Assembly (NCBI GenBank): GCA_964016885.1
Contig: OZ024740.1
Location: 404,798,001 to 404,862,000, forward strand
DNA length: 64,000 nucleotides
Origin: Eledone cirrhosa
Taxonomy: Eukaryota
Direction of reading: 5' to 3'
The position numbers were made by a program, and so were the translations under genes. Within the stretch, counting starts at the first letter, position 1; each line of letters starts with the position of its first letter. Below are positions 19,890-61,044 of this stretch, piece after piece. Below the pieces are notes generated by a model, which saw only the letters and a program-made list of their open reading frames with translations, had not been told where the DNA came from and made no database searches.

Positions 19890-21383
19890 GTATGTGCATG
19901 TACATGTGGCTTACCTTTAGCTAGGTACTTTTCCTTCAGCTGCCTCATCAGGAAGAGAGCATCTGCAGTGCTTTTGCCAGGTAGAAATCTGAACTGTATC
20001 TCATCTAGATTTACCCGGTCCCTAATCAGCTGTCTTATAACTCTTTCTGTTAGTTTCATGACCTGGTCCATCAACTTGATGCCTCTGGTATTTTTACCTG
20101 GCCCAAATCCAAACTGCATTTTATCAAGTTTAATTCGGTTGCTAATCAGCTGTGCAATAACTCTTTCTGTGACCTTCATAGCCTGGTCTACCAACTTAAT
20201 ACCCCTATAGTTTTCTCTGTCTAGAGCATCTCCTTTGCCCTTGTAGTTGACGATAATGTTGCTATGCCTGTCATTAGGTATGACTCCATTTTGTATTACT
20301 TGGTTTACTATATGGGTGACTATGATGTGTCCCACCATCCCACACCCTTTCAGCATCTCAGCAACTACCCCCAAAGGTCCAGCTGCCTTGCCTGTCTTCA
20401 TATCTTGGCTTACCTTACTTACTATACTACTACGAACTTGCACAGCCGGTCCTTCTATTGGGTCAACTAGGGGAAAACTATCTTCATCCCATTCATCCTC
20501 CTTATTTAGCAGTCTTTCATAGTGGCACTTCCATGCTACCTTCTTTTCAGCATCAGTGAGGGCAAGTTCTCTGTTATCATCACAGACATACTTCTCCTCA
20601 ACAATATCACAATTTCCCTTGACACATTGTCTTGCAGTCCTGAACACCTCATGTCTTTGGTCCTCGCATTGCAGAACATGCTTAAAATTTTTATCTTCTG
20701 TTTCTGCTTCCCTCCTTGCAAAGTACACTTGTCGCTTAGCTTCTCTCCTAGCCACCTGGTAGTGTTCTGTACCTCCTCCCTCCCACCATTCTTTCTATGC
20801 CCACCTTTTGGCCTTAATTGTCTCCTCCTCCTACTGTTCCACCGCCAAGTACTTCTCCTCCCTAGAGGCTTGCTTCAGCCACAGATTTGTTGCCTTCAGT
20901 AGGTTATCTTTCAGGAATTCCCACTACTCCTCTATATTGTATGTCTCTATTTGCACTACCTTACTATCAAAAGCATCAAGTAACATGCCTCTAAATTTGT
21001 TACTGACTGTGGGGTTCTTCAATATCCACATTCTTCCCTTCAAGATTCTCCTCTGTTGTTGAGTTCGTCTAGTCCTGACTACAAGGTCACTAACTATTTA
21101 GTTATGTTGGGAGATGCATTCTTCACCAGGAAGGGACTTTGTGCTTACAACAGCCACCCTGTCACATCGTCTGGAAAGGATAAAATCAATCTGGCTGGTG
21201 TGTTCCCTTGATCTTTAGGGGATCAAGTGATTGTTTTATTTTTTGAAGTTTGTGTTACAGATAGTTAGGTCATTGGTATCGCAGAACTCCAGGATCCTGA
21301 AACCATCCTTGTTTCTATAACCAAACCCATAACCTCCATAGATCCTGTTGTAGCCATCGCAGTGTTGTCCAACATGCCTATTA
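19890..21383 (-). mobile_element. RTE-clade LINE internal fragment (APE end to RT start), bounded by (TA)n at both ends
   Basis: ORF 19874..20755 (MKTGKAAGP, YKGKGDALDRENYRGIKL, QFGF); upstream APE-type motifs HVGQHCDGY...YGFG and SQIDFIL. Confidence 0.9.
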
Positions 21384-21691
21384 CATATATATATATTTGG
21401 ACAACACTGTGATGGCTACGATGGGATCCATGGAGGTTATGGGTTTGGTACTAGAAATGAGGAAGGTTTATATAAATATATATTTATTCTTGGACTGGGC
21501 GATGCATTGTGTCCTTGAGCAAGACACTTTATTTCACGTTGCTCATTCTTCCAGGAGTTGCGACCAACAGATAGTATCAGCAATGGAAACATTGTTTCCT
21601 TGGTCTGACTTGAGGAGGTCCACACCACTCGACAAGTGAATGAGGTCCAAGATTTTGTTGATTGATTTTCCTCCTTCCTTATATATATACA

Positions 21692-22510
21692 CTAGCAGCA
21701 CTACCCAGCGTTGCCTGGGTAGGTAAAATAATATCCTCTTTGATGAAAAGGTGTTGATCTTAGCAACTGCGAGTTTCTTGAAAATCGGTTGTAAATGGCG
21801 AAATGTTGAGTGAAATCGTATGGAATATGTGGGAGGTGGAAAAAATCGTATTTTGAAGAGTTAAACGGCTGCCACGCCGTCCCTGAACAAAAAATGCAAA
21901 GTATAAAGCTACTATAAGATGTGCAATGATAGGTTCTATCGTAGTATAAACGTTGAACCAAATAAATTGATTTATGTGTGAGGTGGAGCCGAAGTTTCGA
22001 ATTTGAATGAAATCGGTTGAAAAATGTGGGAGCTAGAGCCGAAAATGGGGAAATATGAGCGAAAAGGTGGTATTTTCGAATATTTCAGCGGCTGCCACGC
22101 CGTTGCTGAAGAAAAAATCCAAAATGTAAAGCCACTTTAAGACGTGAAATAATCAGATCTAGCGTAGTGTAAAATTTGAACAAATTAGGTTGATTAATGT
22201 GGGAGCTAGAGCCGAAAAAGTGGAAATTTGAGTCTAAAAGTGGTATTTTTGAATATTTAAGCAGCTGTCACGCCGTCCCTGAACAACAAAGGCAAAATAT
22301 AAAGCCATTACAGGATGTGCAATGATAAATTCTATTTTGCTTTTGTGGGAACTAGAGCCAAAAATCTTATTTTTCGATACCTAAAAAAGTGACCTCCCCT
22401 ATCGATTTTTATCTGCAGAATGACCGCGGAATAAAAAAACGATACGCTGATATATAGAAAACACTCCCCGATGACTAATCTATGAGCCTGTAAAGTTTAA
22501 TGAAAATTCT
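21692..22510 (-). mobile_element. Non-autonomous Helitron with internal ~170-225-bp repeats
   Basis: Minus-strand 3' end CCCAGG-CAACG-CTGGG hairpin followed by CTAG|T; internal repeat gctgccacgccgt...tgaa at ~21868, ~22090 and ~22264; 5' boundary approximate. Confidence 0.7.
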
Positions 22511-22683
22511 CAGGCCGGGTGATGTGTTGTTTCCTTGCAAGCAGGGAAAAAAAGTGGATGTAAAATGAAACGATGATGATATATACACATATATATATAT
22601 ATAACAGAAGTCTGATGAGCTTTTGAATCCAGAGTCAGGTCCGATCAATACAGAACGAACCTTGAGCTGAAGGGCTGGCGTAG

Positions 22684-24458
22684 CAGCATCATTGTTAACT
22701 GCTACAAGGGTAAAGGAGATGCTCTAGATCGGGGAAACTATAGAGGCATTAAGTTAGTTGACCAGGTCACAGAAAGAGTTATAGCGCAACTAATCAGAGA
22801 TCGAATTGATCTAGATAAAATGCAGTTTGGGTTTGTGTCAGGTAAAAGTATAACAGATGCACTTTTCCTTGTACGACAACTACAGGAGAAGTACCTAGCT
22901 AAAAGTAAACCCCTCTACTTAGCTTTTGTTGACTTGGTGAAAGCCTTTGACAGAGTCACACGCTACATTATCTGGTGGGCTTTTAGAAAGTAGATGAATG
23001 GCTTGTGAGAGCTATACAAGCCATGTATAAAGATACAGTCAGTAAGGTTAGAATTAACAATGAATACACTGAAGAATTTAGTGTAAAAGTCAGTGTTCAT
23101 CAAGGCTCTGTCCTTAGCCTCCTCCTATTTATTATTGCCCTTCAGGCTATAACAGAGGAGTTTAAGACTGACTGCCCATGGGAACTTCTATACGCAAATG
23201 ATCTAACGCTCATAGCTGAATCTATGGCTGAACTAGAGAAGAAATTCCAAACATGGAAGCATGGCCTAGAATCAAAAGGCCTTAAAGTTAACTTGTCTAA
23301 GACTAAAGTTCTAGTATGTAGAAAGGAAAATAGGACACAGGTGCCCTCTGGGAAATGGCCATGCTCAGTATGTAGGAAAGGAGTAGGTAGAAATTCCATT
23401 CTATGTCCCAAATGCAAACTATGGGTACATAAAAGATGTAGTGGGATCACAGGCAAGCTATCTAAGAACGTAGATTTTATATGTGGCCGATGCTCAGGTG
23501 CAATCAGTAGCAAGTGCCCACAAGATACTAGCTCAGATGGTTCCATAGAAATAGTGGACACTTCCTGTTATGTGGGTGACAAAATCAGCAGTGGTGGTGG
23601 GTGTTCTGAAAGTACAGTAGCCAGAGTTAGAACGGGATGGAAAAAGTTCAGAGAGCTTATACTGCTGTTGGCCACAAAGATTTTCTCTCTAAAAATGAAA
23701 GGCAGATTGTATGATGCTTGTATATGGACAGCAATGTTACATGGCAGTGAGACATGGGCATTATGTGCAGAGGACCTGCGCAGACTGGAAAGGAACGAAG
23801 CATGCATGCTCCGTTGGATGTGTAATAGTAATATACACGAATGGCAAAACATAAATGAACTAAGTGAGAAATTAGGAATAAGAGGGATCAGATGCTGTTT
23901 AATCGAAAGACGATTACATTGGTACGGTCACATGATGCGCATGAAAGACGACAGCTGTATAAAAAAGTACAGGGCGATCAAAATTGAAGGAAGTTACAGA
24001 GTAGGTAGACCCAGAAAAACCAGATCAGATCAGACAAGACCAGATCAGATCAAACCAGATCAGATCAGACAAGACCAGATCAGATCAAACCAGATCAGAT
24101 CAGACAAGACCAGATCAGATCAAACCGGATCAGATCAGATCAAACCGGATCAAATCAGACAAGACCAGATCAGATCAAACCGGATCAGCTTGGACCAGAA
24201 CAAAATGTTCTTGACTGACTCCATTGAGATGGGTTCAGTGCGGCCATCTGGCCTATCCTTTCTCATAATGGTGCCATCCAGTTCCACACTGTAAATGTGG
24301 TTGGTGTAAGGAAGGGCATGCAGCTGTAGAATCTCCGGTCAAATTCACAGTCCTCGGACTGTATGGCATGGTCAATTCTGGCCTGAATTGTCTCCCAACA
24401 TGGATAACCTGTCTAGAAAAATGGACGCTAAATGGTAATGATGATGATGATGATGATA
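22684..24458 (+). mobile_element. RTE LINE 3' half with (GAT)n tail, disabled
   Basis: ORF 23005..24294 (HQGSVLS, YANDL = mutated YADD); 3'UTR motif ggaagggcat...gctgtagaa; gatgatgat tail. Confidence 0.92.
24020..24200. repeat. (CAGAT/CAGAC/CAAAC)n pentanucleotide array at the end of the RTE ORF
   Basis: Direct inspection; produces the DQIR-type repeats in the ORF. Confidence 0.9.
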
Positions 24459-24598
24459 TACATATACCAACCCCAACCAGCCTGCCATTATTACTGTCAT
24501 ATATTGACTAACAAGCAGTTGATGCCACACATGGAATGCAAGCATTGAAATGAAAATTTAGTAATAGGGTCGATATTCAGAAACCCTTCAATGGACTA

Positions 24599-24703
24599 GC
24601 GTTTTGATGAGAATTCCTTCACCTAGGATTTGCTGATTATTGATCTATTATTAATCAATGACCAGCAGATTCCTCACAGAATTTGAAACAGTACTGTCCA
24701 AGC
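24599..24703 (+). ncRNA. Degenerate type I hammerhead ribozyme with extended stem II
   Basis: TTGATGA (24604-10); stem II gaattc/gaattt enclosing the hairpin aggatttgctg...cagcagattcct; GAAA (24685-88); palindromic stem III ACAGTACTGT; GTC site; stem I poorly paired. Confidence 0.55.
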
Positions 24704-24952
24704 ATACAAGTGTATTTTTGTATTATTTTATCTTCTTGTGTGCTAAACTAGGAGGATACTGGCTGTTTCAATTGATGAAATTGCGAGTACTTTAATATTT
24801 TCATATGTTAATCTGTGGAAACAATAATTCCACTCTCATTTCATGGCTAAGACTCCTGGCTGGGAATGTTGCCTTACAATTGATCCTATGCATATACTCC
24901 AAATGGATTTTCTGAGCAAATTGTAAGCAATGTGGATATCAATCTAAACCCT

Positions 24953-24988
<36 letters not shown>

Positions 24989-25045
24989 AAGCAAATTATA
25001 AATGTAAACATGTAAGTATGTTTTTGAAACGGTGCGCGAGTTTGA

Positions 25046-25223
25046 AAATTAGAAATTAGAAATTATAAGCTTTCACCGTATTTTAGACTAAAGAAATTTC
25101 TAGCCCGTACATGTACGGCAACACTCATCTTTTTCTATTTCTCCGAGGGTTATAAACTCCACTATCGGGCTAGAAATTTCTTTAGTCTAAAATACGGTGA
25201 AAGCTTATAATTTCTAATTTCTA

Positions 25224-25227
<4 letters not shown>
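25046..25227. repeat. 62-bp inverted repeat (58-bp spacer) between (TA)n tracts
   Basis: 25046-25107 is the reverse complement of 25166-25227. Confidence 0.9.
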
Positions 25228-25273
<46 letters not shown>

Positions 25274-25275
<2 letters not shown>

Positions 25276-25805
25276 TATTAGGATTGGTGCTCTGAAATAG
25301 CAATGTATATATGAATGGATGTATAGTAGATTTGGCAATATACCGTATCTTTAATTAAAACCATTTAGAAGACCATACGCTATCAGTTTTAAAGTAGTGA
25401 CTATGTCACTTACTTCTTTTCGGTGAAAGAAAGGGAGAGAAGCTGACAGTCTGTTTCACGCTGTTTCATACGGTATATTGCCTAATACACTATACATACA
25501 TTCATGCATACATCGCTATTTCAGAGCACCAATCCTAATACCAAATTTTTGCTGGACTGGCAATCGCTCTGATTATTACTGGAATTCTATACGAATCCAG
25601 CTTCTATAATTTTTGGCAGAAGCAGGGGAGTGCGTGGCTCTAATAAACGCCAACCAGCGTGAAACAGACTGTCAGCTTCTCTCCCTTCTTTCACTGAAAA
25701 GAAGTAAGTGACATAGTCACTACTTTAAAACTGATAGTGTATGGTCTTCTAAATGTTTTACTTAAACATACGGTATATTGCCAAATATACCATACATACA
25801 TTCAT
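25274..25805 (+). mobile_element. Retrozyme/PLE-pLTR-like element: 300-nt monomer plus inverted junction-spanning copy
   Basis: catacggtatattgcc recurs at 25467 and 25767; 25274-25463 is a diverged reverse complement of 25656-25767 joined to 25468-25542; hammerhead-like motif at 25566-25676; (TA)n on both sides. Confidence 0.65.
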
Positions 25806-25811
25806 ATATAT

Positions 25812-26626
25812 ATCATCATCATCATCATCACCGTTTTACGTCCGTTCTTCCATGCTAGCATGGGTTAGACGGGTTGTCCTGTTGTGGGCAGTGTCTGGTC
25901 GGCTGACCATGCCTTGCTCATACAGGAACTGATCTGGCTTGATTTCTACAGCTGGATGCCCTTCCTAACACCAACCTCATTTACAGTGAGTGCTAGGTGC
26001 TTTTTCGTGGCGCCTACACGTCCACTTTACAGTGTGGGCTGGGTGCTTTTTTGCCGTGGCACCTCCACGACCACCTTGCGGTGGGGGGGTGTGGGGGCAT
26101 ATTGTTTATATGCTTCAGCATGTACCCATGGGAGGTCGGGTACCCTGTATTACTGCGTGACGCCAGAAGTCACGGTCGTGTGTCATTGACTTTGAGAGGT
26201 GTAGTTGGGTAAGGTCGGCTTTTATCACCTCATCCCAAGTCATCTTGGGTCTCCCCACTTCGCGGTTTCCATCAACTTCTAGTGCTCTGCACCTTTTTAT
26301 GCAGCTGTCATCCTTCATACGCATCACATGTCCATACCAGCGTAACCGCCTCTCCTGCACGCAGCATTTGATTCCTCTTATGCTCAGTCTCTCTCTCAAT
26401 TCCTTTATGCTTTGTCGTTCACGTATATTACTGTTACACATCCATCGGAGCATGCAGGCTTCGTTTCTCTCTAATCTACGTAAGTCTTCCACCTTCAGCG
26501 CCCAGGTCTCACTACCATGCAACATCGCTGTTCGGATACACGCATCATACAGTCTGCCTTTCATTCTGAGGGAGAAGCCTTTTGCAGCTAGCAGTGGTAG
26601 TAGTTCCCTAAACTTCTTCCATCCCG
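25812..26626 (-). mobile_element. 5'-truncated RTE LINE
   Basis: TGWKKFREL...LHGSETW...RLRWYGHV...RPKMTW; (GAT)n tail; (TA)n on both flanks. Confidence 0.92.
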
Positions 26627-26646
26627 TATATATATATATATATATT

Positions 26647-28414
26647 GTTATACTTGGGGAGGGTAATATTTGTGTAATATTGCCAGAATTAATAACAGAA
26701 CACACTCACTGTTTGGTTGGTTTTCGCTTTTGTGTCTTTTATATCGGTTAATTTAATTTATTCGGTCCTCATTGTTGCCATTGACTGACCAATGGTCAAA
26801 AATACAGATACAATATAGACACAAACACATATATATAGTCTATCAAAGTTCTTTTGTTGCACATCTGCAACATCGTCAGTGTTGCTATTATGTTTCCTCC
26901 CATTGCATTGTATGCTTACGCCATCTTTATTTAGTCTGTTTATTTATTTATTTATTTGTTTTTTTTTTGTCTTCTCTGCGCATGCGTTTGCGTATAGTGT
27001 TTTGTTTGATGTGTGTTCTTGTTTGGGTGACTGTGTATTGGTTAATGCTTCTATCTTAGTTTACTGGTGTGTGTTTATATGTGTTTGCTGTTATTGTGCT
27101 TGTGTATGTATTTATCTATTTATTTATTTATCTATCTATTTATTTATACTTCTCTTAGGTCAGTGTTGTTTGTTTGGGTGTTGTTGTTATTCCATTCATT
27201 TTTTCTGTTTAGCCTTGGCCTTCTAAGTTCTATTTCGCTAGCCTCTCTGATTTGCCTATCTGCTGGGTCGTTTCTATGTTTAGATTATATTCTAACTTCT
27301 ATGTTGTCTATGTTACCGTTGTGTTGTCTGGCATGTTCGTATAGTACTGAACCGTTTTTTTCGTCCTTTTAGTTCCCCCCAGTGTTGGTCTATCCTTTCA
27401 CCTATGCTACGAGCTGTCTCGCCTATGTATGTATGTTGTCATGTTTCTGCAAGTACCCTCTGTACATCTTATGCTATAGACTACGTTTCTAGTTTTACAG
27501 TTTATCCGGGGATTTACTCTACATATGATACATTTCCTATTAGTACAGTGGGTTTTCTTAAAAGGGTAGGTTTTGCTGATCAGGGATTTTATGGTGGTTC
27601 CTGGCTTTTCTTCCACCTTAATCTTTAAGTGGGTCTTTCTCAGGGCCTTTCTACACTGGTTAGCTAATGTCCCTCCAGGGGTAGCGTCCACAAACATGAC
27701 ACTCTGGTATCTCTGGTTGTCGTACCATGAGGTGGCTTTTACTATCTTACGTCTAGTCTTATCTAAGCTATTCCATGATTTGTTCCTGTATAATGGGCAA
27801 ATTCCTTTCATGTCCAGTTCTATAATGGGCAAATTCCTTTCATGTCCAGTTCTATGAGGGTCTTATACTTCTCCGTGGCTCCTTCGTATACTCTGATTCT
27901 GTCTCTTTGGTTGTAGCCAGAGAACTGCATGCATCTTTCCATTTCTGTTGGGTCGCACATGCGGGACACGTTCTTCATCACTTGTACCAAGTCTGCGATC
28001 AGAATATTAAACTTAGCACTACTGGACATTGCTGAGTTTTTGAGTATCATGTATTTGGAGACCATGGGTTTAGCGTAGTGTGAGTGGAGAATTTGGGCTC
28101 TCTCGTCTATAGCATTAATCCAGAGTTCTGTGTCTAATACAGGTAGTCTATTGTTAGGGTGTTTGGAAGGGTAGTCGATAGTTACAGTTATACTCTGGAG
28201 TATGGAATTAGCTATCTGCTGGATGCTTTCCATTGTGCTACGTTCTACATCAAACTTGTTAGTACTCTCTTGTGGGGATGTCCTTATTATTATATTGATG
28301 TTGTCTACGTAACGAGAGTACATGATGAGGTCTATGAAGCTCTCATCAAGGAGATCTTTGAGTCTCCTAACAATATTTGTTTCCACACACGATTTCATAT
28401 CAAAAACCTCGCAA

Positions 28415-28417
<3 letters not shown>
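26647..28417 (-). mobile_element. Penelope-like element, Naiad-like, 5'-truncated and disabled
   Basis: RT C-terminus RYVDNI...TIDYPSKH...LPVLD...HYAKPM...SA...K; Cys cluster HCTNRKCIIC...C...VVYSIRC...C; GIY-YIG YIGETARSIGER and RQIREA...LNRKNEW in shifted frames; (TA)n on both sides; 32-bp duplication frameshift at 27789-27852. Confidence 0.8.
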
Positions 28418-28486
<69 letters not shown>

Positions 28487-30800
28487 CATCATCATCATCA
28501 TCATCAACGTTTAACGTCCGTGTTCCACGCTTGCATGGGTTTGGACGGGGGTTTTCCCACTTGAGGCAAGAGTGATTGTCTTGCTCGCATAGGACTGTCT
28601 GGCGGGTTTTCTACAGTTGGATGCCCTTCCTAACACCAACCACATTTACAGTGTGGGTCTGGGAGGTTTTTACCGTGTTGCCTACACGGCCACATTACAG
28701 CGTGGACTGTGTGTTTTTTTGTCGTGACACCTACACGATCTCATTTGTTTCGGCCTGGATGGCGGGGCACCAACATAACTTTACATAGAACGGGGTGGTG
28801 TGGATGGGGTGGGGGTGGTGGTGGTGGGACGGGGTGTATTTTGTTAGAGATGCCTACTGGCTGGAGTAGGTTTTACTATATATTTAGGTAAGGCGGGTCT
28901 TCTCTGTTACTGAGTACCGCCAAAGGTCTCGGTCCAGTGACATTGTCTTGGAGAGGTGTAAGTGTGTGAGGTCGGAGTTTATCAGCTCGTCCCAGGTTTT
29001 TCTAGGTCTGCCTATTCCGTGGCTACCGTCTATCTTTATTGCCCTGCACTTTGTTATACAGCTATCGACTTTCATGCGCATCACGTGTCCATACCAACGT
29101 AGCCTTCTCTCGAGTAAACAACATCTGATCCCTCTTATCTCTAATTTTTTCCTTAGTTCGTTTATGCTTTGCCGTTCACGTATATTACTGTTACACATCC
29201 AGCGGAGCATGCAAGCTTCGTTCCTCTCTAGTCTGCGTATATCCTCTGCACACAATGCCCAGGTCTCACTGCCATGCAACATTGCTGTTCGTATGCAGGC
29301 ATCGTACAACCTGCCTTTCATTTTTAGGGAGAACCCTTTAGCAGCTAATAGTGGTATAAGCTCTCTGAACTTTTTCCAACCAGTTCTGACTCTAGCTACA
29401 GTACTTTCAGAGCACCCTCCCCCACTGCTGATTTTATCGCCCAGGTAACGGAAGCTGTCCACTATTTCTATAGAACCCTCTGCGCAATTGAAAGAGCTAG
29501 TATTTTGTGGGCACTTGCTGCTACTTATCGCACCAGAACACCGCCCACATGTAAAATCTATGTTCTTAGTTAGCTTACCTGTGATCCCACTACATCTTTT
29601 ATGCGCCCATACTTTGCATTTAGGACATAAAATGGAGTTTCTACCTATGCCTTTCCTACACACCGAGCACGACCATTTCCCAGAAGGGACCGCCGCCTTG
29701 TTTTCTTTCCTACAAACTAGAACTTTAGTCTTAGCCAGGTTAATTTTAAGTCCTTTTGACTCTAGGCCGTGCTTCCATGTTTGGAATTTCTTCTCTAGCT
29801 CGGCCATTGATTCCGCTATGAGTGTCAGGTCGTCTGCGTATAGGAGTTCCCATGGGCAGCTGGTCTTGAACTCCTCTGTTATAGCCTGAAGGGCAATAAT
29901 AAATAGTAGGGGGCTGAGAACAGAGCCCTGATGGACGCCAACTTTTACGCTAAACTCTTCACTATATTCGTTGTTAATTCTAACCTTGCTGACTGTTTCT
30001 TTATACATGGCTTGTATAGCCCTCACAAGCCATTCGTCAACGCCTAGTTTTCTAAGAGCCCACCAGATAATGGAGCGGGGGACTCTGTCGAAGGCTTTCT
30101 CCAAGTCGACAAAAGCTAAGTAGAGGGGTTTACCTTTAGCTAGGTACTTCTCCTGTAGTTGTCGTACTATGAAAAGAGCGTCTGTGGTACTTTTGCCTGA
30201 CACAAACCCGAACTGCATTTCATCTAGGTCAATTCTCTCTCTGATTAGTTGCGCTATTACTTTTTCCGTGACCTTCATGACCTGGTCGATTAATTTAATG
30301 CCTCTATAGTTACTCCTATCTAGGGCGTCTCCTTTACCCTTATAACAGTTAACGATGATGCTGCTATGCCAGTCCTTCGGAACAACCCCATTCTGTATGA
30401 CTTGGTTAACTATGCGGGTGACCATGGTGTGTCCCACCGTGCCAGATGCCTTCAGCATCTCAGCAACTATTTCCGAAGGCCCAGCCGCCTTACCCGTCTT
30501 CATATCCTTGATTGCCTTACTTATTATACTCCCCTCGACTAACACTGCTGGTCCCTCTATTGGGTCGATATGGGGGAAACTGTCTTTCTCCCATTTATTC
30601 TCCTCATTTAGTAGCCTTTCATAGTGACACTTCCAAGCTACCTTCTTATCAGCGTCGGTGATGGCAAGTGTGCCATCATCGTTTAGTACACACTTCTCCC
30701 CGACAATATCACTGTTTTCCTTGACGCATTGCCTAGCAATCCTGAACACCTCACGTTTTTGGTCCTCGCGTTGTAGAACATGCTTGAACTTTCTTTCCTC
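28487..30800 (-). mobile_element. 5'-truncated RTE LINE with uninterrupted RT ORF
   Basis: ORF 28884..30827: FVDLEKAFD, GVHQGSVLSP, YADD, YLG, no stops over ~640 codons; 3'UTR and (GAT)n tail abut (TA)n. Confidence 0.95.
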
Positions 30801-30859
30801 TATACATGTGTGTGTGTGTGTGTACACTTATCGTGATGATGATGAAGATATATATATAG

Positions 30860-43002: not shown

Positions 43003-45420
43003 CAGGTGACTTCAATCATCCTGAGATCGATTGGGAAACCTTTCGTTGGCCACAAAGTGCAAACGATTTCCTTGAGCTAGTGCTGGACTGAAACTGGTCA
43101 CAAGTAGTCACCTCTCCAACAAGAGGTGACAACACTTTGGACCTGATCTTCACCACTACTCCTGAAGTGGTTATCAGTTGTACTACTGAGGAACCTCTAG
43201 GCGACTCTGATCATGCTATGATCATTGCCAATCTGGCTCTTGCGGGTAGCAACAAAAACCAGAACCATCTCCAATCTGCTTGCTTTGATTGGAAGAAAGC
43301 AGATTGGAACTTGTACTGCACTGAGCTACAGCGCCCAAACTGGCATGAGATGTATAACTCTGGAGATGTGAACACTATACTCCAGAGCATCCTGGACTCA
43401 ATATGGATAGCGTGTGCAGCATTGGTGCCACGTAAGCAGAAAAATAACCACCCCAAAAGTGCAATTTGGGAAACTTCAGTGGTCCGACTTGCCAGGAAAG
43501 AACATCGGAACGCTGAACGGGAATATAAACTGCATAAATCAGATGCCAACAGAAAAAAGCGGAATAAATCTTCTAACCATCTCAAGCAAGTGACAAAGAA
43601 GGCAGTACTTGAATTTGAACAGTGCATAGCAACCAATCCTGACAGTAAGGTGTTCTGGAAATATGTTCATTCAAAGTAGAGACCTCACTCTCCAGTTGGT
43701 CCTCTTTGCAATCCCACCACAAGCCAGATCACTGACGATCCCAAAGAATGCGCAGAACTCATTGCTGAGTGCTATGCAAGTATTTTTACTGTTGAAAACC
43801 AGAATGTACCATCTCCACCATCTCTAACATCAAATTCCATAACAACTATGGAATTTGCACCTGCAATGTTGCGACGTCACCTTAAGAATAAGCGCAACTA
43901 TGCCTTCCCTGGTCTTGATGGTGTTACATACGTGCTTCTCAAACGTGGCGGTTATTTCCTTTTGCACCAGCTTTCTTTCTTCTTTCAATACTGTCTCAAC
44001 AATGGTGCTACTCTGGAGCAGTGGAAAACTGCCAGTGTCATTCCCCTGTTCATAAAGAGCAACCGCATGTCACCTGTCAACTATCGTCCAGTCAGTCTTA
44101 CTAGCTGTATGGCCAAACTGATCGAATCCTGTGTCAGAGAAACACTTTGGAACTTCTGGAGCTCTCACAGCCTCATCTGGCCCTTGCAGTTTGGATTTAT
44201 CCCTAACTCCAGCTGCTGCGATCAGCTTATCGAGTTCCTTGAAGACATCACCCGGATCACTGACAGTGGTTCATGGGTGGATGTTGTTTACCTTGACTTT
44301 GCTAAGGCTTTTAATTTTGTGCCACACAAAAGACTTATGGCAAAACTCTCTGCAATGGGTGTGAGGGATGATCTTTTCGACTGGTTGAAATCCTTCATTC
44401 TCAGCCGAAAAGAGGTAGTCACGGTTCTAGGACAGCATTCTTCACCATATATTAACTTACAGAATGCCACGGTACTGAAATATGCAGATGACATCAAGCT
44501 GTACCTTGAAATCAAAAGGACTGATCCTGAAATCTATAACTCTTTCCTACAATCAGACCTGGACACAATGCAGCAATAGATCACAGACTGGCAACTGAAG
44601 CTGGCTGTGGACAAGTGTACCACCATGCATTTTGGGAGGAAAAATTCAGCGTCCACATACTCCCTCCACAACACTGATATCAAGAAGTCCTCTTGTGAAC
44701 GTGACCTGGGCATTACTGTCAGCAGCGATTTGCGTTGGACAAAGCATGTCTCTAAGATTGTCAAGAAGGCCGAGGGTGTCTTGGCATCACTCAGCAAGAC
44801 CTTTGTTAGCCGCTCTGCAGCCATCTATTTAAAATTGTATACAGCTATGGTACGACCACACTTGGAATTCGCATCATCAGTCTGGAACCCCTATCTTGCT
44901 CAGAACATTGACCGCCTGGAAACTGTTCAGAGACGTGCAACTAAGCACATACCCTCCATCAGACACCTACCCTGGGCATGGATTCATTGAAGCTCCGACG
45001 TCTGGCAATGGACTTGGTAAACACCCACAAAGTTATTAACCATCTCGCCAACAACAACCCTGAGCACCTTTTTGATCTCCATGTGTCTAACACACGTGGA
45101 CATGCCTACAAAATCAGAAAACAACACAGCTCCCATGACTTTCGTAAACATTTTTTCACGCTCAGAGTTGCTGAAGCATGGAACAAACTGCCTGCGTCAG
45201 TTGTTGGCTGCCGAGACACTGCATCCTTTAAGACACTCATGCTTCCCGAAGTACGCCAAAACTGCACCTGATGTGCCCCTTCCAGGCACATGCACACGTG
45301 TATATCATGACTCATGCACTGTTCATTTTCCTGACGTTTGTACATTGCACTGTGTACTATACATGCACTTTTTGATGGGTTGTGGTGCACCTGAGCACTG
45401 TACACAATATTTCATTATTT
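43003..45420 (+). mobile_element. CR1-clade LINE ORF2 (APE C-terminus plus RT), disabled, with internal deletion
   Basis: GDFNHPEIDW, LGDSDH, NYRPVSLTS, YLDFAKAF, YADDIKLY (GVPQGS block missing), RDLGI, VRPHLEFASSVWNP, RGH...FFTLRVAEAWNKLP. Confidence 0.9.
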
Positions 45421-47037: not shown

Positions 47038-48143
47038 TCATCATCATCGTTTAACGTCCATATTCCACGCTTGCATGGGTTTGGACGGGAGTTTTCCCAC
47101 TTGAGGCAAGAGTGGTTGTCTTGCTCGCATAGGACTGTCTGGCGGGTTTTCTACGGCTGGATGTCCTTCCTAACACCAACCATATTTACAGTGTGGAACT
47201 GAAAGCTTTTTACCGTGTTACCTACACGGCCACATTACAATGTGGACTGTGTGTTTTTTTGTCGTGACACCTACACGACCTCATTTGTTTCGACCTGGAT
47301 GTTGTGGTACCAACATAACTTTACATTGAAAGGGGCGGTGTGGATGGGGTGGGGGTAGTGGGACGGGGGTGTATTTTGTTAGAGATGCCTACTGACTGTA
47401 GTAGGTTTTACTTTGTATTTAGGTAAGGCGGGTCTTCTCTATTACTGAGTACCGCCAAAGATCTCGGTCCAGTGACATTGTCTTGGAGAGGTGTAAGTGT
47501 GTGAGGTCGGAATTTATCAAGTCGTCCCAGGTTTTTCTGGGTCTGCCTACTCCGTGGCTACCATCTATTTTTATTGCCCTGCACTTTTTTATACAGCGGT
47601 CGTCTTTCAAGTGCATCACGTGACCATACCAACGTAGCCTTCTCTCGAGTAAACAACATCTGATCCCTCTTATTTCTAATTTTTCCCTTAGTTCGTTAAT
47701 GCTTTGCCGTTCACGTATATTACTATTACACATCCAGTGGAGCATGCAAGCTTCGTTCCTCTCTAGTCTGCATATATCCTCTGTGCACAATGCCCAGGTC
47801 TCACTGCCATGCAACATTGCTGTTCGTATGCAGGCATCATACAGCCTGCCTTTCATTTTTAGGGAGAACCCTTTAGCGGCTAATAGTGGTATAAGCTCTC
47901 TGAACTTTTTCCATCCAGTTCTGACTCTAGCTACTGTACTTTCAGAGCACCCTCCCCCACTGCTGATTTTGTCACCCAGATGATGGAAGCTGTCCACTAT
48001 TTCTATAGAACCCTCTGTGCAATTGAAAGAGCTAGTATTTTGTGGGCACTTGCTGCTACTTATTGCACCAGAGCACCGGCCACATGTAAAATCTATGTTC
48101 TTAGTTAGCTTACCTGTGATCCCACTACATCTTTTATGCACCC
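47038..48143 (-). mobile_element. 5'-truncated RTE LINE, close relative of the 28487 copy
   Basis: ORF 47419..48141 and 3'UTR nearly collinear with 28487-29600; (TA)n on both sides. Confidence 0.93.
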
Positions 48144-48537
48144 ATATATATATATATAAATGAAAATAGAGAAATTAATGTGAGCAATATATATATATAT
48201 ATGAAAATAGAGAAATTAATGTGAGCAATATATATATATATATATATATAACTGTATTTTAACTTTAATTTTATACCTAATTGTGTATGGTTGACGATAT
48301 ATTTAATCGATTTCCACGTGCTATTGAAATGCTGGGTAAATATTCTATGGCTGTTGATCGTGAATAGGTGGCTATCGTTTATTTATCTATTATTTCTTCA
48401 TAGGTGTCTTTTAATCTTATAGCCTGGTTTAATTGTTTCTTTGTGTGGTTAATTATGCTAATTGGGAGAGGAAATTGAGTATATATCTTATCAAATGATT
48501 CTAAGGACATAATTTATAGTTACAGTTATATATATAT

Positions 48538-53952: not shown

Positions 53953-55435
53953 GCACTTAATAATGCTTTCTTTATTAACCACAAGGGTTTACACAAAGTA
54001 GACATTAAGGACAGTACAGGACAATACAGGATGGTACAAATGGGCATTTCTGCGTGTAAAAACAAAAAACAGAGGATGTAACAAAAAAGAACAATGAAAA
54101 ATTCCCCAATAGGGGGAGTCCTCCGAGGGTCGCTCATGGAGAAAGCCCACAAGAAAAGCCACGGTTACCCTGACCGCTAGGGCAAATTCCCTCTTCCAGT
54201 TTTCCTCCTACGATGCTACAGGCACACACTCAGGGTAGGCCCATTCACACGGGCCATTCTTGCCTCTCTCACCCACCTTTCAGCAAACTGGCTGGAAGTC
54301 AGCACTTCCCTCTCCACCCTGATTTTCCTTGAGGGCGTCACCAAAGAGGTAAGTGCTTGTCTTCAACCCTTTCAGACGTGTCCACCATACAATCTTTTTT
54401 ACCATGGCCACCAGGCAGATAAAAACTGCCTGCCCTTCTCGGCCAAAGGAAGGCGGCGGGGCAATTTTCAAGATGGATTCAGCTGATAGCCCGATCTGTC
54501 CTACACGTGACAGCAGGTGTTCGGCATAAACCCACAAGTCAGCAATGCTCGGACACTGGATGAGTGCATGCAGGATGGTTTCATTGCCCTGCACGCATCT
54601 CAGACAGGCCCGGCTGACGGCACTACCATGTCTGTAGAGTTTATCCTGAACTGGCAAGGCTCCTCGGTAGCACTGCCAGGCCAGGGATTTCTGGAAGTTG
54701 TCTATGGGCCCCAGACCGAAAATTCTCCCAAAGAGATTGGTTAGTTGGTTTTCGTCGATGCCTAGAGTCTCCCCAAGGACGTCGTCGCTCTTTCCTTCCA
54801 CTAACTCTCTATAGAACGCCAAGGTGGAGTTTCCAGCGATCGTATTGCTCAACTGGTCAAGGGCTGTAAGCGCTTGAAGACATTCCACTCTCCAAGCGCT
54901 TCCTCTCGGTCTTCGCTTGACCCAGGACTGCAGCTCCTTCAAGGAGACAAGCTGGGGAAACATGTGTCTAGCAAAGGCCAACCACACCTGATCACCGTCG
55001 TGGAAGAGGTGGAGATGTCGTAGCCTGAGCACATGTCTGCACATCATCAGCCATGGCATGCCCAGCCCTCCGCATAGTGGGTGTTGACAGCCTAATAATA
55101 ATAACAAAAAATTCCCCAATAAGGGGGAAGCCTCCGAGGGTCACTCATGGCGAAAACCACACAAAAGACCATGGCCACCCTGACCACCAGGGCAAGCGCC
55201 CTCTCTCAGTTTTCCCACTCCTCAGTCTACAGACGCATACTCAGAGCGGGCCCATTCACTCGGACCAGACTCGCCACTTTCACCCACCTTTCAACAAACT
55301 TACTAGAAGACAGCACTTGACTCTCCACCCTGATTTTCCTCTTCAAGTGAAACTTGAAAAAGTTAATCAGGGATTGGCCGGAGAGGAAAGTGTCCATCTT
55401 CAACCCTTTCAACCTTGTCCACCACACAATCTCTT
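53953..55435 (-). mobile_element. Tx1/L1-clade LINE 3' fragments (two tandem pieces: ~53953-55090 and ~55095-55435)
   Basis: WQCYRGALPV...CLRC...ETILHALIQCP zinc knuckle; the C-terminus WWTRLKGLK and part of the 3'UTR occur twice. Confidence 0.8.
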
Positions 55436-56232: not shown

Positions 56233-57282
56233 CACCAGATAGAAAAATGCGTACAGCAAAAAAAAGTAATATTGTTGGAATATAAACCTTTAAAAATACA
56301 GGACAAGAAACTAAGATAAAACTTTAAAAGAATAGGACAAGAAACTAAGATAAAACTTTAAAGAATTGGACAAGAAATAAAAAATTTTACAATAATATTA
56401 GTGGCAAAATTTTTATTGGTAAAAAATCGAGTTCCACATTCATAGGCTCTGGATTCCACATTCAGAGGTCGTCGTCAGACCGGGGGGATCATTTGATCCT
56501 GGTTTGAACACCAATTGGGCCATAACCATACCCCTATTTCATCATTCGGCGACACGCCTCATGTGTCATACATAATGTGAATGGACCCATGGGCCCATGA
56601 GCACAGATCTTGAGCAGCAGCGGACGGTCTTGTCGTCCCGCTCATCCTTGATCTTGACCAACCCGTCCATCTTCTCCTTGAGTTCAAGTCTGGCAGTCCA
56701 GATGAATGCATGCCACAGCTTTCTGGTACAGGAAGGGGGAGCAGGAGGACTGGAGGGATGACGGGACAGAGGGAGGGAGGACCGGTGGTTGAGGGAGGTG
56801 CCGTAGTCGGTGGTCAGAGTCGACATCTTGTCCCGGTCGTCTTCTCCATCTTCGTCTGGTGTTGCGGGACCAGAAGTGCATTCTTGGAGGAGACCTGCAG
56901 CTGCATCGGCCAATTCTTCTTGCAATGGTCATTCTGACGGAGCAGAACTGCTCAGCCAACCAACCCCAACCAGCACCAACCGCTCAGGGGAAACGCACAA
57001 TGAGAGCATGACAATTATTATGCACTAATCAAGAAGATACTGGGGCATAGCACAGGAAACGAATAAAAAAATTTTGCCACTAATATTATTGTAAAATTTT
57101 TTATTTCTTGTCCAATTCTTTAAAGTTTTATCTTAGTTTCTTGTCCTATTCTTTTAAAGTTTTATCTTAGTTTCTTGTCCTATTCTTTTAAAGTTTTATT
57201 TTAGTTTTTTGTCCTGTATTTTTAAAGGTTTATATTCCAACAATATTACTTTTTTTTGCTGTACGCATTTTTCTATCTGGTC
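56233..57282. mobile_element. Foldback/CACTA(EnSpm)-like non-autonomous DNA transposon with long TIRs and subterminal 34-bp repeats
   Basis: 56234-56417 is the reverse complement of 57062-57281 (right arm has one extra 34-bp unit); termini CACCAGATAG/CTATCTGGTC with TA on both sides. Confidence 0.7.
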
Positions 57283-57554
57283 TACTATTTTTTAAGGCAA
57301 TGCAAGCAACAACTATCTAATAATTAAATGATCATAGTGAATTACTGACAAGTGATTGACATTTTAAAGTTCTTTTGAGTATAATTGCAATCTAGTTGAG
57401 GCAACTGGCTTAATGACAAAGCTAGTAAATCATGAATGCATTTGAGATGATTAGTGCATAATAGTGAATTAGTGAAACTTGTGCATTTCAATGGTGTTAC
57501 AACAATAGATGTAAGTTATATAGTAGTAATACTTTATCATTTCAACTTTTTAGA

Positions 57555-57914
57555 ATGGACAAAAACCCATGCAAAGAAATGACTTTGACTGCAGTGATTC
57601 TCTCCAATTTACTTACAAAGCAAAACGTGGTCAAATACCTTATCATCTCTGATAAAATGCCCATTGAATCACTGAAAATCGGATGCATGGAATTCCTCAT
57701 AAAATGCACCTATGAATCGGAAGCCATGACATATATCAATGGATATAGGGAGTTGTTCACACTGGAAGACCATCACTTCATTTGTGACTTCATCAGTTAT
57801 CTCCACGATTATCTCAGACACCCAATGCCATTGATGAGAGGTGATCCAATGTGTGAGCATGTAACTAATCTTATAGAAGTTGTTATCGACCACCTGGCTT
57901 TTAGTGACATTTGA
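57555..57914 (+). CDS. BACK/BPM-like (SPOP C-terminal-type) ORF or exon
   Basis: LTKQNVVKYLIISDKMPIESLKIGCMEFLIK...GYREL fits the BACK helical pattern; a ttttttag acceptor lies just upstream; function unknown. Confidence 0.45.
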   Translation: MDKNPCKEMTLTAVILSNLLTKQNVVKYLIISDKMPIESLKIGCMEFLIKCTYESEAMTYINGYRELFTLEDHHFICDFISYLHDYLRHPMPLMRGDPMCEHVTNLIEVVIDHLAFSDI

Positions 57915-58094
57915 CTGATTTGACTGATAATGATGTATTTTTAAAAAGTATGTGTACATTCTTGTTACTATTTTAAGGCAATGCAAGCAACAACTATTTA
58001 ATAAAATTTAAATTTAAAAATGACCATTGTGCATTACTAGTATGATGACATTTTATTAAGTCACAAAATTAGTCAGTTAGCCATAGAACAAGGA

Positions 58095-58448
58095 TCAGGT
58101 GGCAAAAACATTGGCAAAAATTTGTGTCAATTTAAGATTTCCAACATTGTTCGAATGAATCATATCTGGTTTGAAGTCAGATTTGTCAAATTTTGACCAA
58201 TTTTCAATGTTGTGAAGATTGGGCAAGTTCAATTTTTGAATCATTTCTTTCATGCAGTAATTAAACTTTTCCAAACGAGAATTTCTCTTGCCCAAGTCAT
58301 TTTTATTTTCAATTACACTTTGTGGACATGGAATGACACCACTGTAGAAAATGGGTGTACAGTGGTGCTTTTCCGCTATTTTCTGTAGCCTTGCAAAGAG
58401 ACTCTTCCCCTGTTTTTCCGGTTTTGTGCCTCGAATGGGCACTTTGTC
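58095..58448 (-). CDS. SGNH-hydrolase gene exon 3
   Basis: AG|DKVPIRG...IFYSGVIP...FN...PDMIHSNNVGNLKL* (block V DxxH). Confidence 0.8.
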   Translation of the reverse strand, partial: DKVPIRGTKPEKQGKSLFARLQKIAEKHHCTPIFYSGVIPCPQSVIENKNDLGKRNSRLEKFNYCMKEMIQKLNLPNLHNIENWSKFDKSDFKPDMIHSNNVGNLKLTQIFANVFAT

Positions 58449-58505
58449 CTTAATTTACAAATAAATGATTAATAAAAAATACTTGGGCAAAAATTATTGT
58501 ATTAC

Positions 58506-58655
58506 TTTGCACAGCTTTGTCGTGCCAACGGTGCGACGAGGATTCAGATCATTAGAGCCGACATGAACCACCAATACTTTCACAAAAGGACAACAGATAA
58601 CAATGTTTGCGATTAACATTACCTGGCCTTGACAGGCCCCAGGTATACAAAATAT
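58506..58655 (-). CDS. SGNH-hydrolase gene exon 2
   Basis: AG|IFCIPGA...VLVVHVGSNDL...LCK|GT; 50 codons without a stop; blocks II and III. Confidence 0.75.
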
Positions 58656-58710
58656 CTAAGTATTTTTGTTGGTATGATAAGTAAATACATTTGAATTAAT
58701 ATTTTTATAC

Positions 58711-58890
58711 CTTCTGGTCATTCGATTTCGCCACATTTCTAATTATGGATTTGTAAAAACTGGCATGAATGTGAATTTGATCAGACCAATTGCCCGATTT
58801 TAGTGAAAAGTTTTGATTCGAAATGGAAATACTCCATTTCCGTGCCATGGAAAAAATGAATAAGCCGATCAAAAAGCCGCGAAACATCAT
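58711..58890 (-). CDS. SGNH-hydrolase gene exon 1 (start at 58890 or 58848)
   Basis: ...FYKSIIRNV (block I-like Ser) ...DQK|GTATAA donor; phase 0. Confidence 0.55.
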
Positions 58891-61044
58891 TTTTAATTAA
58901 GCGAAATTAGTGGATGCAAATCTCAGAAAATATTGTACACTATTCGCACCTATCGGTACAAAAATATAGCGCACTATTCGCACCTATCGGTACAAAAAAT
59001 CGCACAACTGTTAATAATACTAGAAGTGCAAACTATCTGTTGAATACCTGGTATATGAAGAGCAACCGATACGATCAGTCGGCGATCGGTCTTGAAGAAG
59101 AATGAAGAATGAAGTGAAATTTTGGTCTGGTTGTTGTCATTGGTGTTTTGCAGAGATGCCGGCACGAACAAAGGTGTCAGTGACACAAAGTTGTCCGCTT
59201 GAACAAAGGTGTCGGTCCGACAAAGGTGTCAGTCAGACAGTGTCACAGTCGGTGCGACAAAGCGATCGATGCGATTAAAAAAAATTTAACTCACATGTTT
59301 ACCTATATTTTCGCAAGCTATTGATAGATTGGTACAAAAAATAGCTTTGATAATAAACATAAATTTTTAACGAAGTATTTAAAAAGCATTTTAGCAGTGA
59401 AAAGTGAAGTAATGTTTCACACTGACGCAAGTAGGGCCGTTCAGAAATGACGTAGTCAATTAGGAGGAGGGGATTCGGCAATTTGACTACATTTGACTAA
59501 CGTAATCACAATCACAAGAGTTCCGCCGAAAAAAATTCGTCATTTCTGGATCACCTCCCCTAGCGTCACGCTTACTACTCACTCACTTGAACACAAGATA
59601 TATCAGCAAACTTTGATTAAAAACTTTTTCCCGCTGGACCAAATTTCTAGATTTTTAAGCCAAAAGATGCGTAATGATCTACTGTTCATGCTCATATAAG
59701 TTTTATCTCAGTTAAATAAAGTAGAGCCGCGCTGTACTGTCATAAACAAACGATTGCCAACGAAAACACGACCACAACAATATTACTAAACGGACTACCG
59801 TCCGTTTAGGATAAATTGATTAAAACCCTTTTGATATCAAGGCACCTTTAGTTTTATTAAACTGTCTGTTTTGTATTTTCAAGATTCTTGACACTTTATT
59901 GCATAGATTGAAAGAAAAATAGAAGTCATTTAAAAAGTTTTGATTTATTCTTGAATTCTGAACTCTAAAAACCTCGCCTTTCAAGAAAAGTTCAGCTTTT
60001 TTGTTCTATTAAAGCTATTTAACGCTTTTATTGTTGCATGTGAGTTTAATTGAATTGCCAGCAGGTTATGGTATTTAGCTACAGACAAGTAAAAATATTT
60101 GTGTTTATTTTGTTTAGTGATCCATAAGAGCCATCAGTTATAATTTTTAATTACACAGCTGTTCTATAAAGTCTGTATCAGCTAAAACTTTGAATAATAT
60201 AACACTAAAAGAGTTAAAATGAATAAAATACACATGCTTTGTAGATATTTTAATTACCTCTATGCTGCACACAATACATTTCAATAAATATTAATAATCA
60301 TTTAGGATAATTATTAATTTCTTTTGATTAGGTATGAAAGTTACTTTTGAAATGTCCAGTTCATTGAATTGGCAATGTGTAACCAGAAAGGTTAGAGCAA
60401 AATTAACTCTGATGTGATTTGAAATCAGAACAACAAAGCAAATGATTAGTGGTGATGCCATGATAAAATGCACCCTGTACACTCTGTAAAGTGATTGGCA
60501 ACAGGAAGAGCATCCAGCCATAAAAACCATGCCAAAAATGGAAGACATGTTTCTCAATCCATCTAGGAGGGTAGTAACCAGCCTGAACTGTGACAACCTG
60601 TCTAACCTACACCAATATGTAATAAAATTATGATGGAAATTAAGAAGAAATGTCTAGAAATCTCAGTGGAAGGAAATTGCAGAAATAAATAATTTCAAAG
60701 TTGACTACTGTGGAAATTGAAGTGCAGAAAGCTGGAAGAAAAACTGCAAAGCTTTCTATCCATAACAATTCTGCCATTTTGCTGCTTATACACCCATATT
60801 GTACCCATATTACAATAATAGTTAATTGAATAAAAAGTTTTTAAAATTACAAAATGGCATTGTTAAATCCATACAATTTCATTCAATAGACTATTACATA
60901 AAATATTGATATATTCCAATTTCAAAACCTTGAGTAAGATGTGATAGAATATAGAAGAAATTTCAACTTCCACCTCAAAGATTAACTCTTTTTATATCAA
61001 ACCACTTCAAGTTCTACAATACAAGGCTGTTTCTTTTAAAGTAT

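What the first reader, a model, noticed from the sequence alone, without database searches (positions are those of the whole stretch)
58095..58890. Cryptic intact three-exon SGNH hydrolase gene with two tiny introns inside a mobile-looking region
Seen: exons 58890-58711, 58655-58506 and 58448-58095 join through phase-0 GT-AG introns of 55 and 57 nt into a stop-free 227-aa ORF. All four SGNH positions are in order: KSIIRNV (atypical block I), PGA, HVGSND and DMIH. The ORF track shows only pieces. Established: SGNH esterase domains occur in ORF1 of some LINEs and as cargo of some rolling-circle transposons. Introns exclude a simple retrocopy and are far shorter than the 0.45-1.25-kb TENT4 introns. 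Inference: an element-borne or newly domesticated esterase-like gene, possibly with a hydrophobic N-terminus.
Basis: partly seen in the sequence, partly recalled or inferred. Interest (0 to 1): 0.7.

Follow-up and report, generated by a model that had tools for sequence, protein, structure and literature searches.

The report
Transposase-esterase deletion chimera in a Helitron
The apparent esterase gene is a patchwork inside a much-copied rolling-circle jumping gene: the first 48 codons of the element's transposase are joined in frame to the back half of a two-domain passenger gene, likely by one internal deletion, and its roughly 90 copies are decaying, so it is likely a relic and not a working or domesticated enzyme.

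Summary
The three exons, both GT-AG introns and the open 227-codon frame are real. They lie in a 3.6-kb non-autonomous Helitron (56235-59811). A 12.6-kb version in the same genome encodes a RepHel transposase and, behind it, a five-exon NADAR-SGNH passenger gene with a canonical GDS block I. Residues 1-48 of the finding, including the 'catalytic' Ser and the hydrophobic start, are 47/48 identical to the RepHel N-terminus. A ~9-kb deletion likely removed the transposase body, the NADAR domain and the G-D-S, and joined the remains in frame. The junction occurs in 93 copies. Of 90 examined, 31 are intact, 55 broken and 4 truncated, with dN/dS ~0.93: neutral decay, no domestication. Splicing was not tested with RNA. 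What stays interesting is the parent cargo: a NADAR-SGNH fusion in a Helitron2-type element, which my searches did not find in print; SGNH cargo alone is known (fish texim). The scan found the same thing earlier on other copies in this genome (e1-10350384, e1-9506873).

The parts
56235..59811 (-). Non-autonomous Helitron (3,577 bp), deletion derivative of a 12.6-kb element; starts TC, ends CTGG, sits between A and T
   Evidence: Shared boundaries among copies; A|TCC in 17 of 21 copies and CTGG|T in 17 of 21, the rest not matching the search motif or truncated; alignment to the long copy
59786..59809 (-). 5'-terminal hairpin, 10-bp perfect stem with 4-nt loop
   Evidence: DNA fold -10.2 kcal/mol; sequence
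59775..59787 (-). 5' arm of a 13-bp asymmetric subterminal inverted repeat
   Evidence: Read from the sequence
56265..56277 (-). 3' arm of the 13-bp asymmetric inverted repeat, ending 30 nt before the 3' terminus
   Evidence: Read from the sequence
58747..58890 (-). Codons 1-48 of the finding = N-terminus of the RepHel transposase frame, including the Ser taken for the nucleophile
   Evidence: 47/48 identity with L087:2113-2439
58746..58747 (-). In-frame deletion junction (about 9.0 kb missing; one shared A, weak flanking similarity)
   Evidence: Three-way comparison of RepHel, window and cargo gene; 93 exact copies of a 26-nt junction pattern, control 0
58711..58746 (-). Last 12 codons of exon 3 of the parent NADAR-SGNH gene
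58656..58710 (-). 55-nt GT-AG phase-0 intron (third intron of the parent gene)
   Evidence: removal gives continuous alignment to intronless homologues
58506..58655 (-). Exon with SGNH blocks II (PGA) and III (GSND)
58449..58505 (-). 57-nt GT-AG phase-0 intron (fourth intron of the parent gene); exact borders less well supported
   Evidence: falls in a 13-residue insertion relative to the homologue profile
58095..58448 (-). Last exon with block V (D-x-x-H) and stop
57555..57914 (+). 119-codon convergent open frame of unknown meaning, carried by the element
   Evidence: no homologue found among proteins of 65-209 aa
56235..57280 (.). 3' end made of two long inverted arms (56235-56414 and 57067-57280) around a 652-nt loop
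   Evidence: present in the long copy too

Best explanation
The 227-codon frame is an in-frame join of the first 48 codons of a Helitron transposase gene to the rear half of the same element's NADAR-SGNH passenger gene, likely made by one ~9-kb internal deletion and likely spread to about 90 sites as a passive part of a non-autonomous element. Shown: both parent sequences exist in 12.6-kb copies, the junction is shared by 93 copies, and the copies collect stops and frameshifts at the neutral rate. Inferred: the deletion left both ends intact, so transposase made by full-length copies moved the short element in trans. Inferred: the frame looks intact because the burst is young (about 0.8% divergence from the majority sequence). 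Predicted: if transcribed from the transposase promoter and spliced, the product would lack the first beta-strand and the G-D of block I and would be an inactive esterase.
For: Copies 95-98% identical with sharp common ends. Long copies carry DUF6570 (E 7e-16), Helitron_like_N (6e-28), PIF1 (1e-24) and UCH (6e-7) upstream on the same strand. All 7 copies of the upstream cargo exon read G-D before the junction, 6 of 7 GDS. Three successive cargo exons match successive thirds of Pfam NADAR (18.7, 13.9, 15.7 bits; each below the 35.1 cut-off). The spliced 335-aa product of copy L088 aligns over residues 2-329 to a profile of four NADAR-SGNH homologues (209 bits). A model of homologue P0003 (pLDDT 81.9) matches YbiA, NADAR and SGNH structures. 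Selection test on 90 of 93 copies: 245 missense, 93 silent, 21 nonsense against 252.6, 89.0, 17.4 expected. The window copy's 7 coding differences from the majority are 4 missense and 3 silent. The residue before the SGNH serine is usually Asp, Asn, Gln or Thr and positions it (PMC10792757, passages); here it is Lys.
Against: The join is exactly in frame and puts a Ser in the nucleophile's register, a coincidence (about 1 in 3 for frame, less for the Ser). A first sample of the 21 best-matching copies gave dN/dS 0.68 with 2 nonsense against about 5 expected, but that sample was chosen for similarity. Neutral decay of copies after insertion is expected for any transposon gene and says nothing about the source copy. 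The chimeric protein itself was not folded or assayed. No copy with an unbroken RepHel was seen among the 5 long copies whose start was located, so the helper is inferred.
Confidence: 0.9

Rival explanations
1. The fusion was useful to the short element: the transposase leader drives a still-active or dominant-negative SGNH protein that helped this derivative spread.
For: In-frame junction with Ser in register; blocks II, III and V retained; 93 fusion copies against 7 with the full cargo exon.
Against: Other derivatives that lack most or all of the SGNH gene are at least as abundant (joints and depth; loci L065-L070), so spread does not need this frame. Block I is incomplete.
Confidence: 0.06
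2. This copy has been domesticated as a host esterase gene.
For: This copy keeps an open frame and all four splice sites.
Against: 31 of 90 copies are equally intact. Its own changes are 4 missense to 3 silent, one next to the catalytic His. It retains both transposon ends.
Confidence: 0.02
3. The domain is a fragment of a LINE ORF1 esterase.
For: The homologue profile reaches the ZfL2-1 ORF1 esterase 4c1b (E 2.6e-4); P0009 and P0012 combine SGNH and NADAR in the reverse order in ORF1-like proteins.
Against: Four introns in the parent gene, no reverse transcriptase within the 12.6-kb element, Helitron ends. A remote LINE ancestry of the cargo is not excluded.
Confidence: 0.02

Closest known systems
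texim SGNH hydrolase genes linked to fish Helitrons (PMC4021074; parts 1-3 of 5 of the text read)
   Same: Intron-containing SGNH hydrolase gene, multicopy, next to Helitron coding sequence.
   Different: texim has up to 15 exons, lies 5' of the Helitron coding region and is expressed in testis; no NADAR domain is mentioned in the parts read. Here the cargo lies 3' of RepHel, has 5 exons and starts with NADAR, and the window copy is a deletion chimera. Orthology was not tested.
Helitron2/HLE2 with 5' hairpin: Fusarium FoHeli3-5 ('HLE2-reverse') and Phytophthora proto-Helentron (PMC5148889, PMC11417382, PMC4067079; passages read)
   Same: [quoted passage not shown]
   Different: Ends are TC...CTGG in an A|T target, as in Helitron1, and the 3' end carries two long inverted arms; cargo is NADAR-SGNH.
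YbiA-family NADAR hydrolases (PDB 2b3w, 8bau; PMC11125620, passages read) and NADAR domains in Ectocarpus Gypsy and oyster Tx1 ORF1 (PMC12477816, passages read)
   Same: The parent cargo's N-terminal domain matches NADAR by sequence and, through a homologue, by fold; NADAR is already known as transposon cargo.
   Different: Reported carriers are retrotransposons; here the carrier is a DNA rolling-circle element and NADAR is fused to SGNH. The domain is absent from the window copy.
ZfL2-1 LINE ORF1 esterase (PDB 4c1b; PMC3905857, abstract and outline read)
   Same: SGNH fold in a transposon-encoded protein.
   Different: No reverse transcriptase or coiled-coil ORF1 context; introns present; similarity remote.

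Membership tests
SGNH hydrolase (window's 227-aa product) | Block I G-(D/N/Q/T)-S after the first beta-strand | tested here: not met
   Y-K-S from RepHel; profile alignment starts at residue 48; rule from PMC10792757
SGNH hydrolase (window's 227-aa product) | Block II Gly, block III G-x-N-D, block V D-x-x-H in order | tested here: met
SGNH hydrolase (window's 227-aa product) | SGNH fold | tested here: inconclusive
   Only homologue P0003 was folded and matched; the spliced chimera was not folded
SGNH hydrolase (window's 227-aa product) | Esterase activity | not testable with these tools
   Needs an assay
SGNH hydrolase (parent cargo gene) | All four blocks with GDS | tested here: met
   GDS in 6 of 7 long copies, other blocks in the shared exons; the one copy with an unbroken 335-codon frame (L088) has Asn for the block V Asp
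NADAR, YbiA family (parent cargo gene) | Pfam NADAR match and Glu in the last strand | tested here: met
   Three exons match profile positions 4-67, 82-115 and 120-162, each below the cut-off alone; homologues pass it; LVED in L088 and L090 aligns with YbiA LVEH (that this is the catalytic Glu is my inference from PMC11125620)
Helitron2 / HLE2 | RepHel with the DUF6570 marker | tested here: met
   E 6.6e-16; marker from PMC11417382
Helitron2 / HLE2 | Short asymmetric terminal inverted repeats and a terminal hairpin | tested here: met
   13-bp repeat, 5' hairpin
Helitron2 / HLE2 | Insertion between T and T | tested here: not met
   A|T target in all 17 of 21 copies where each end was matched
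Helitron2 / HLE2 | Placement in the HLE2 clade by transposase tree | not tested
   No reference transposases fetched
Helitron1 / HLE1 | 5' TC, 3' CTRR, A|T target | tested here: met
Helitron1 / HLE1 | Short hairpin 10-12 nt before the 3' end | tested here: not met
   Last 60 nt fold at only -1.7 kcal/mol
Helentron | Apurinic endonuclease domain after the helicase | tested here: not met
   UCH follows the helicase; no endonuclease hit in the 5 frames scanned
texim family | Phylogenetic grouping with Texim SGNH domains | not tested
   No Texim sequence was retrieved

The most novel reading that the evidence does not exclude
The parent Helitron carries a dedicated NADAR-SGNH accessory enzyme that strips ADP-ribose from guanines on the element's single-stranded DNA intermediate, a counter-defence against host ADP-ribosyltransferases, and the same two-domain module is shared with LINE ORF1-like proteins and other mobile elements.
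Probability: 0.15. Interest if true: 0.75.

Novelty: new variant of a known kind. Interest (0 to 1): 0.33.

Why it matters
The finding as given is ordinary: a deletion scar that mimics an intact gene, and a caution for gene callers in repeat-rich genomes. The parent element matters more. NADAR enzymes remove ADP-ribose from guanine in single-stranded DNA (PMC11125620), and Helitrons move through single-stranded DNA (established knowledge), so a Helitron-borne NADAR gives a testable handle on whether animal hosts mark transposon DNA by ADP-ribosylation. I did not find the combination in print: 'Helitron'+'NADAR' (19 of 20 papers listed; the one I opened, PMC12477816, reports NADAR only in retrotransposons), 'NADAR'+'SGNH' (1 unrelated paper), and no NADAR, GDSL or SGNH in the HELIANO text or its held supplement. 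Repbase, Dfam and subscription journals were not searched.

Tried and rejected
Expression: no RNA holder listed. Four runs of unrecorded kind were laid as contigs; none of the 8 joints listed matches either intron; this is no evidence on splicing. Homologue search with exon 3 alone among longer proteins: 0 of 38 candidates scored. The ESM Atlas gave no answer, so that route is open. Search of the own genome for more distant NADAR-bearing families found only this family, so intron conservation and long-term dN/dS between Helitron families could not be measured. Metagenome loci L206 and L207 hold intronless NADAR-SGNH homologues but show no RepHel match within their 6.0-kb and 2.4-kb contigs. 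Rfam on the long copy and its flanks gave only 3 sub-threshold miRNA matches. Rejected readings: signal peptide (the hydrophobic start belongs to the RepHel frame, and the Met-Met start is present in only 2 of the 5 long copies located); a missed upstream exon restoring GDS in the window copy (the upstream DNA is the element's 5' end); a TIR cut-and-paste element (the long inverted arms are only the 3' end of the Helitron). Three of the 93 junction copies, on small contigs, were not fetched. TPR proteins P0002, P0004, P0008 were dropped as spurious.

Full report
Observation. The three minus-strand exons (58890-58711, 58655-58506, 58448-58095) translate without stops and are separated by GT-AG introns of 55 and 57 nt, giving 227 codons. 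Exon 3 hits Pfam Lipase_GDSL_3 at E 0.006, below the cut-off; the other two exons hit nothing.

The region is a young repeat. A search of the own genome with 57900-59400 gave 833 candidates; the 40 scored were the window and 39 copies 95-98% identical. Aligning 20 copies with flanks gives common boundaries at 56235 and 59811. On the gene's strand the element begins TC after an A and ends CTGG before a T, each in 17 of 21 copies, the others not matching the search motif or being truncated. A perfect 10-bp hairpin starts at the 5' end, a 13-bp inverted repeat pairs the 5' end with a site 30 nt before the 3' end, and there is no stable 3' hairpin.

The parent element. Among 20 more divergent hits of exon 3, two (L052, L055) continue upstream into a Helitron transposase on the same strand. 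The copy at C28:42.94 Mb spans about 12.6 kb between the same ends. Its frames match DUF6570, Helitron_like_N, PIF1 and, after the helicase, UCH. HELIANO names DUF6570 as an HLE2 marker and finds UCH enriched in HLE2 subgroups c and d (PMC11417382, passages). The element therefore works like a Helitron2 with a 5' hairpin (FoHeli3-5, PMC5148889, passages) but has Helitron1-like terminal letters and target; it fails one test of each group, so I call it Helitron2-type without claiming strict membership.

The junction. The window copy matches the long element in two blocks, its 5' 1.15 kb and its 3' 2.5 kb, with about 9.0 kb missing between. Residues 1-48 of the finding are 47/48 identical to the start of the RepHel frame. 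In the long copies the SGNH exon reads YIVGDSIIRNV; in the window it reads FYKSIIRNV, and the Ser codon is the transposase's. A 26-nt junction pattern occurs 93 times (control 0), the uninterrupted RepHel start 10 times, and the full upstream cargo exon 7 times. The simplest reading is one deletion followed by amplification in trans; the order of events is inferred, not tested with a tree.

The parent cargo gene. In the long copies two further exons and the lost part of a third lie upstream, giving five exons and, in copy L088, an open 335-codon frame with introns of 55, 217, 54 and 57 nt. These three exons match successive thirds of Pfam NADAR, each below the cut-off. A search of 1.84 billion representatives with the junction-spanning exon gave 12 hits; P0001, P0003, P0005 and P0006 have NADAR followed by GDS, and three TPR proteins were spurious. 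A profile of four such homologues aligns to the spliced L088 product over residues 2-329 at 209 bits, and to the window product only from residue 48, at 36 bits. Intronless homologues in two metagenome contigs align as one block across the first three intron positions, which supports the introns; the fourth falls in a variable stretch. The model of P0003 (pLDDT 81.9) has a strand just before GDS and matches YbiA, an oomycete NADAR and many SGNH esterases; the sequence profile also reaches the ZfL2-1 ORF1 esterase. None of the 7 long cargo copies is fully sound: L088 has Asn for the catalytic Asp, three are frameshifted, two lack exon 1 and one is interrupted.

Selection. Of 93 junction copies, 90 were fetched. 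31 keep frame, start and splice sites, 55 are broken and 4 truncated. Distinct substitutions are 245 missense, 93 silent and 21 nonsense, against 252.6, 89.0 and 17.4 expected from the observed mutation spectrum (omega about 0.93); exons, introns and flanks diverge alike, 0.65-0.99%. An earlier sample of the 21 best matches gave 0.68 but was chosen for similarity. The window copy's own coding changes are 4 missense and 3 silent, one beside the catalytic His. This excludes selection on the family of inserted copies; it cannot test function in a source element.

How it works. Shown: chimeric origin, copy number, neutral decay. Inferred: RepHel from full-length copies mobilised the short element through its intact ends. 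Predicted: any spliced product lacks the first strand and the G-D that position the nucleophile in SGNH enzymes (PMC10792757, passages) and would be inactive. Expression is untested.

Comparison and novelty. SGNH cargo in Helitrons is known from fish texim genes (PMC4021074), NADAR cargo from retrotransposons (PMC12477816), and deletion derivatives are the normal state of Helitron families (PMC4067079, passages). I did not find a NADAR-SGNH fusion in a Helitron in print. After I had reached this reading, the scan's own notes showed the same conclusion for other copies; those notes are not independent support. Verdict: the finding is a real but ordinary deletion chimera; the parent element is a modest new variant. 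Interest 0.33.

Noticed in passing
L087:2113-2439; L073:2694-4007: About 80 residues into the RepHel frame there is a motif like a 2A ribosome-skip peptide (hydrophobic run, then GCVELNPGP; the 2A label is recalled) in 4 of 5 long copies located. A paper search for Helitron + 2A-like found nothing. It could free the transposase from its short leader.
   Followed up: partly
window 56235-57280: The element's 3' end is two long near-identical inverted arms with 34-nt tandem units around a 652-nt GC-richer loop that varies more between copies.
   Followed up: partly
L055:7360-7773 and 7634-8250: A ubiquitin-specific protease (UCH) domain with Cys and His boxes follows the helicase in the RepHel frame.
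   Followed up: partly
window 57424, 57693, 58277 joined to 59537-59540; L065-L070: Other deletion derivatives of the same element share a breakpoint near 59538 and are at least as abundant as the SGNH-bearing form.
   Followed up: partly
window 57555-57914 (+): A 119-codon convergent frame is carried by the element; no homologue found.
   Followed up: partly
proteins P0009, P0012: SGNH and NADAR occur in the reverse order, in P0009 between a PHD-like Cys cluster and a CCHC knuckle (motif names recalled), resembling LINE ORF1 proteins.
   Followed up: no
L206:2565-5078 (-): An 837-codon frame without a Pfam match lies tail to tail with the intronless NADAR-SGNH homologue; it looks transposase-like by eye only.
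   Followed up: partly
window 57283-57366 and 57966-58055: A 76% identical internal direct repeat of about 90 nt inside the element.
   Followed up: no
window 19874-30827, 43092-45271, 47419-48174, 54280-55140: Several decayed non-LTR retrotransposon fragments with reverse transcriptase frames surround the element.
   Followed up: no
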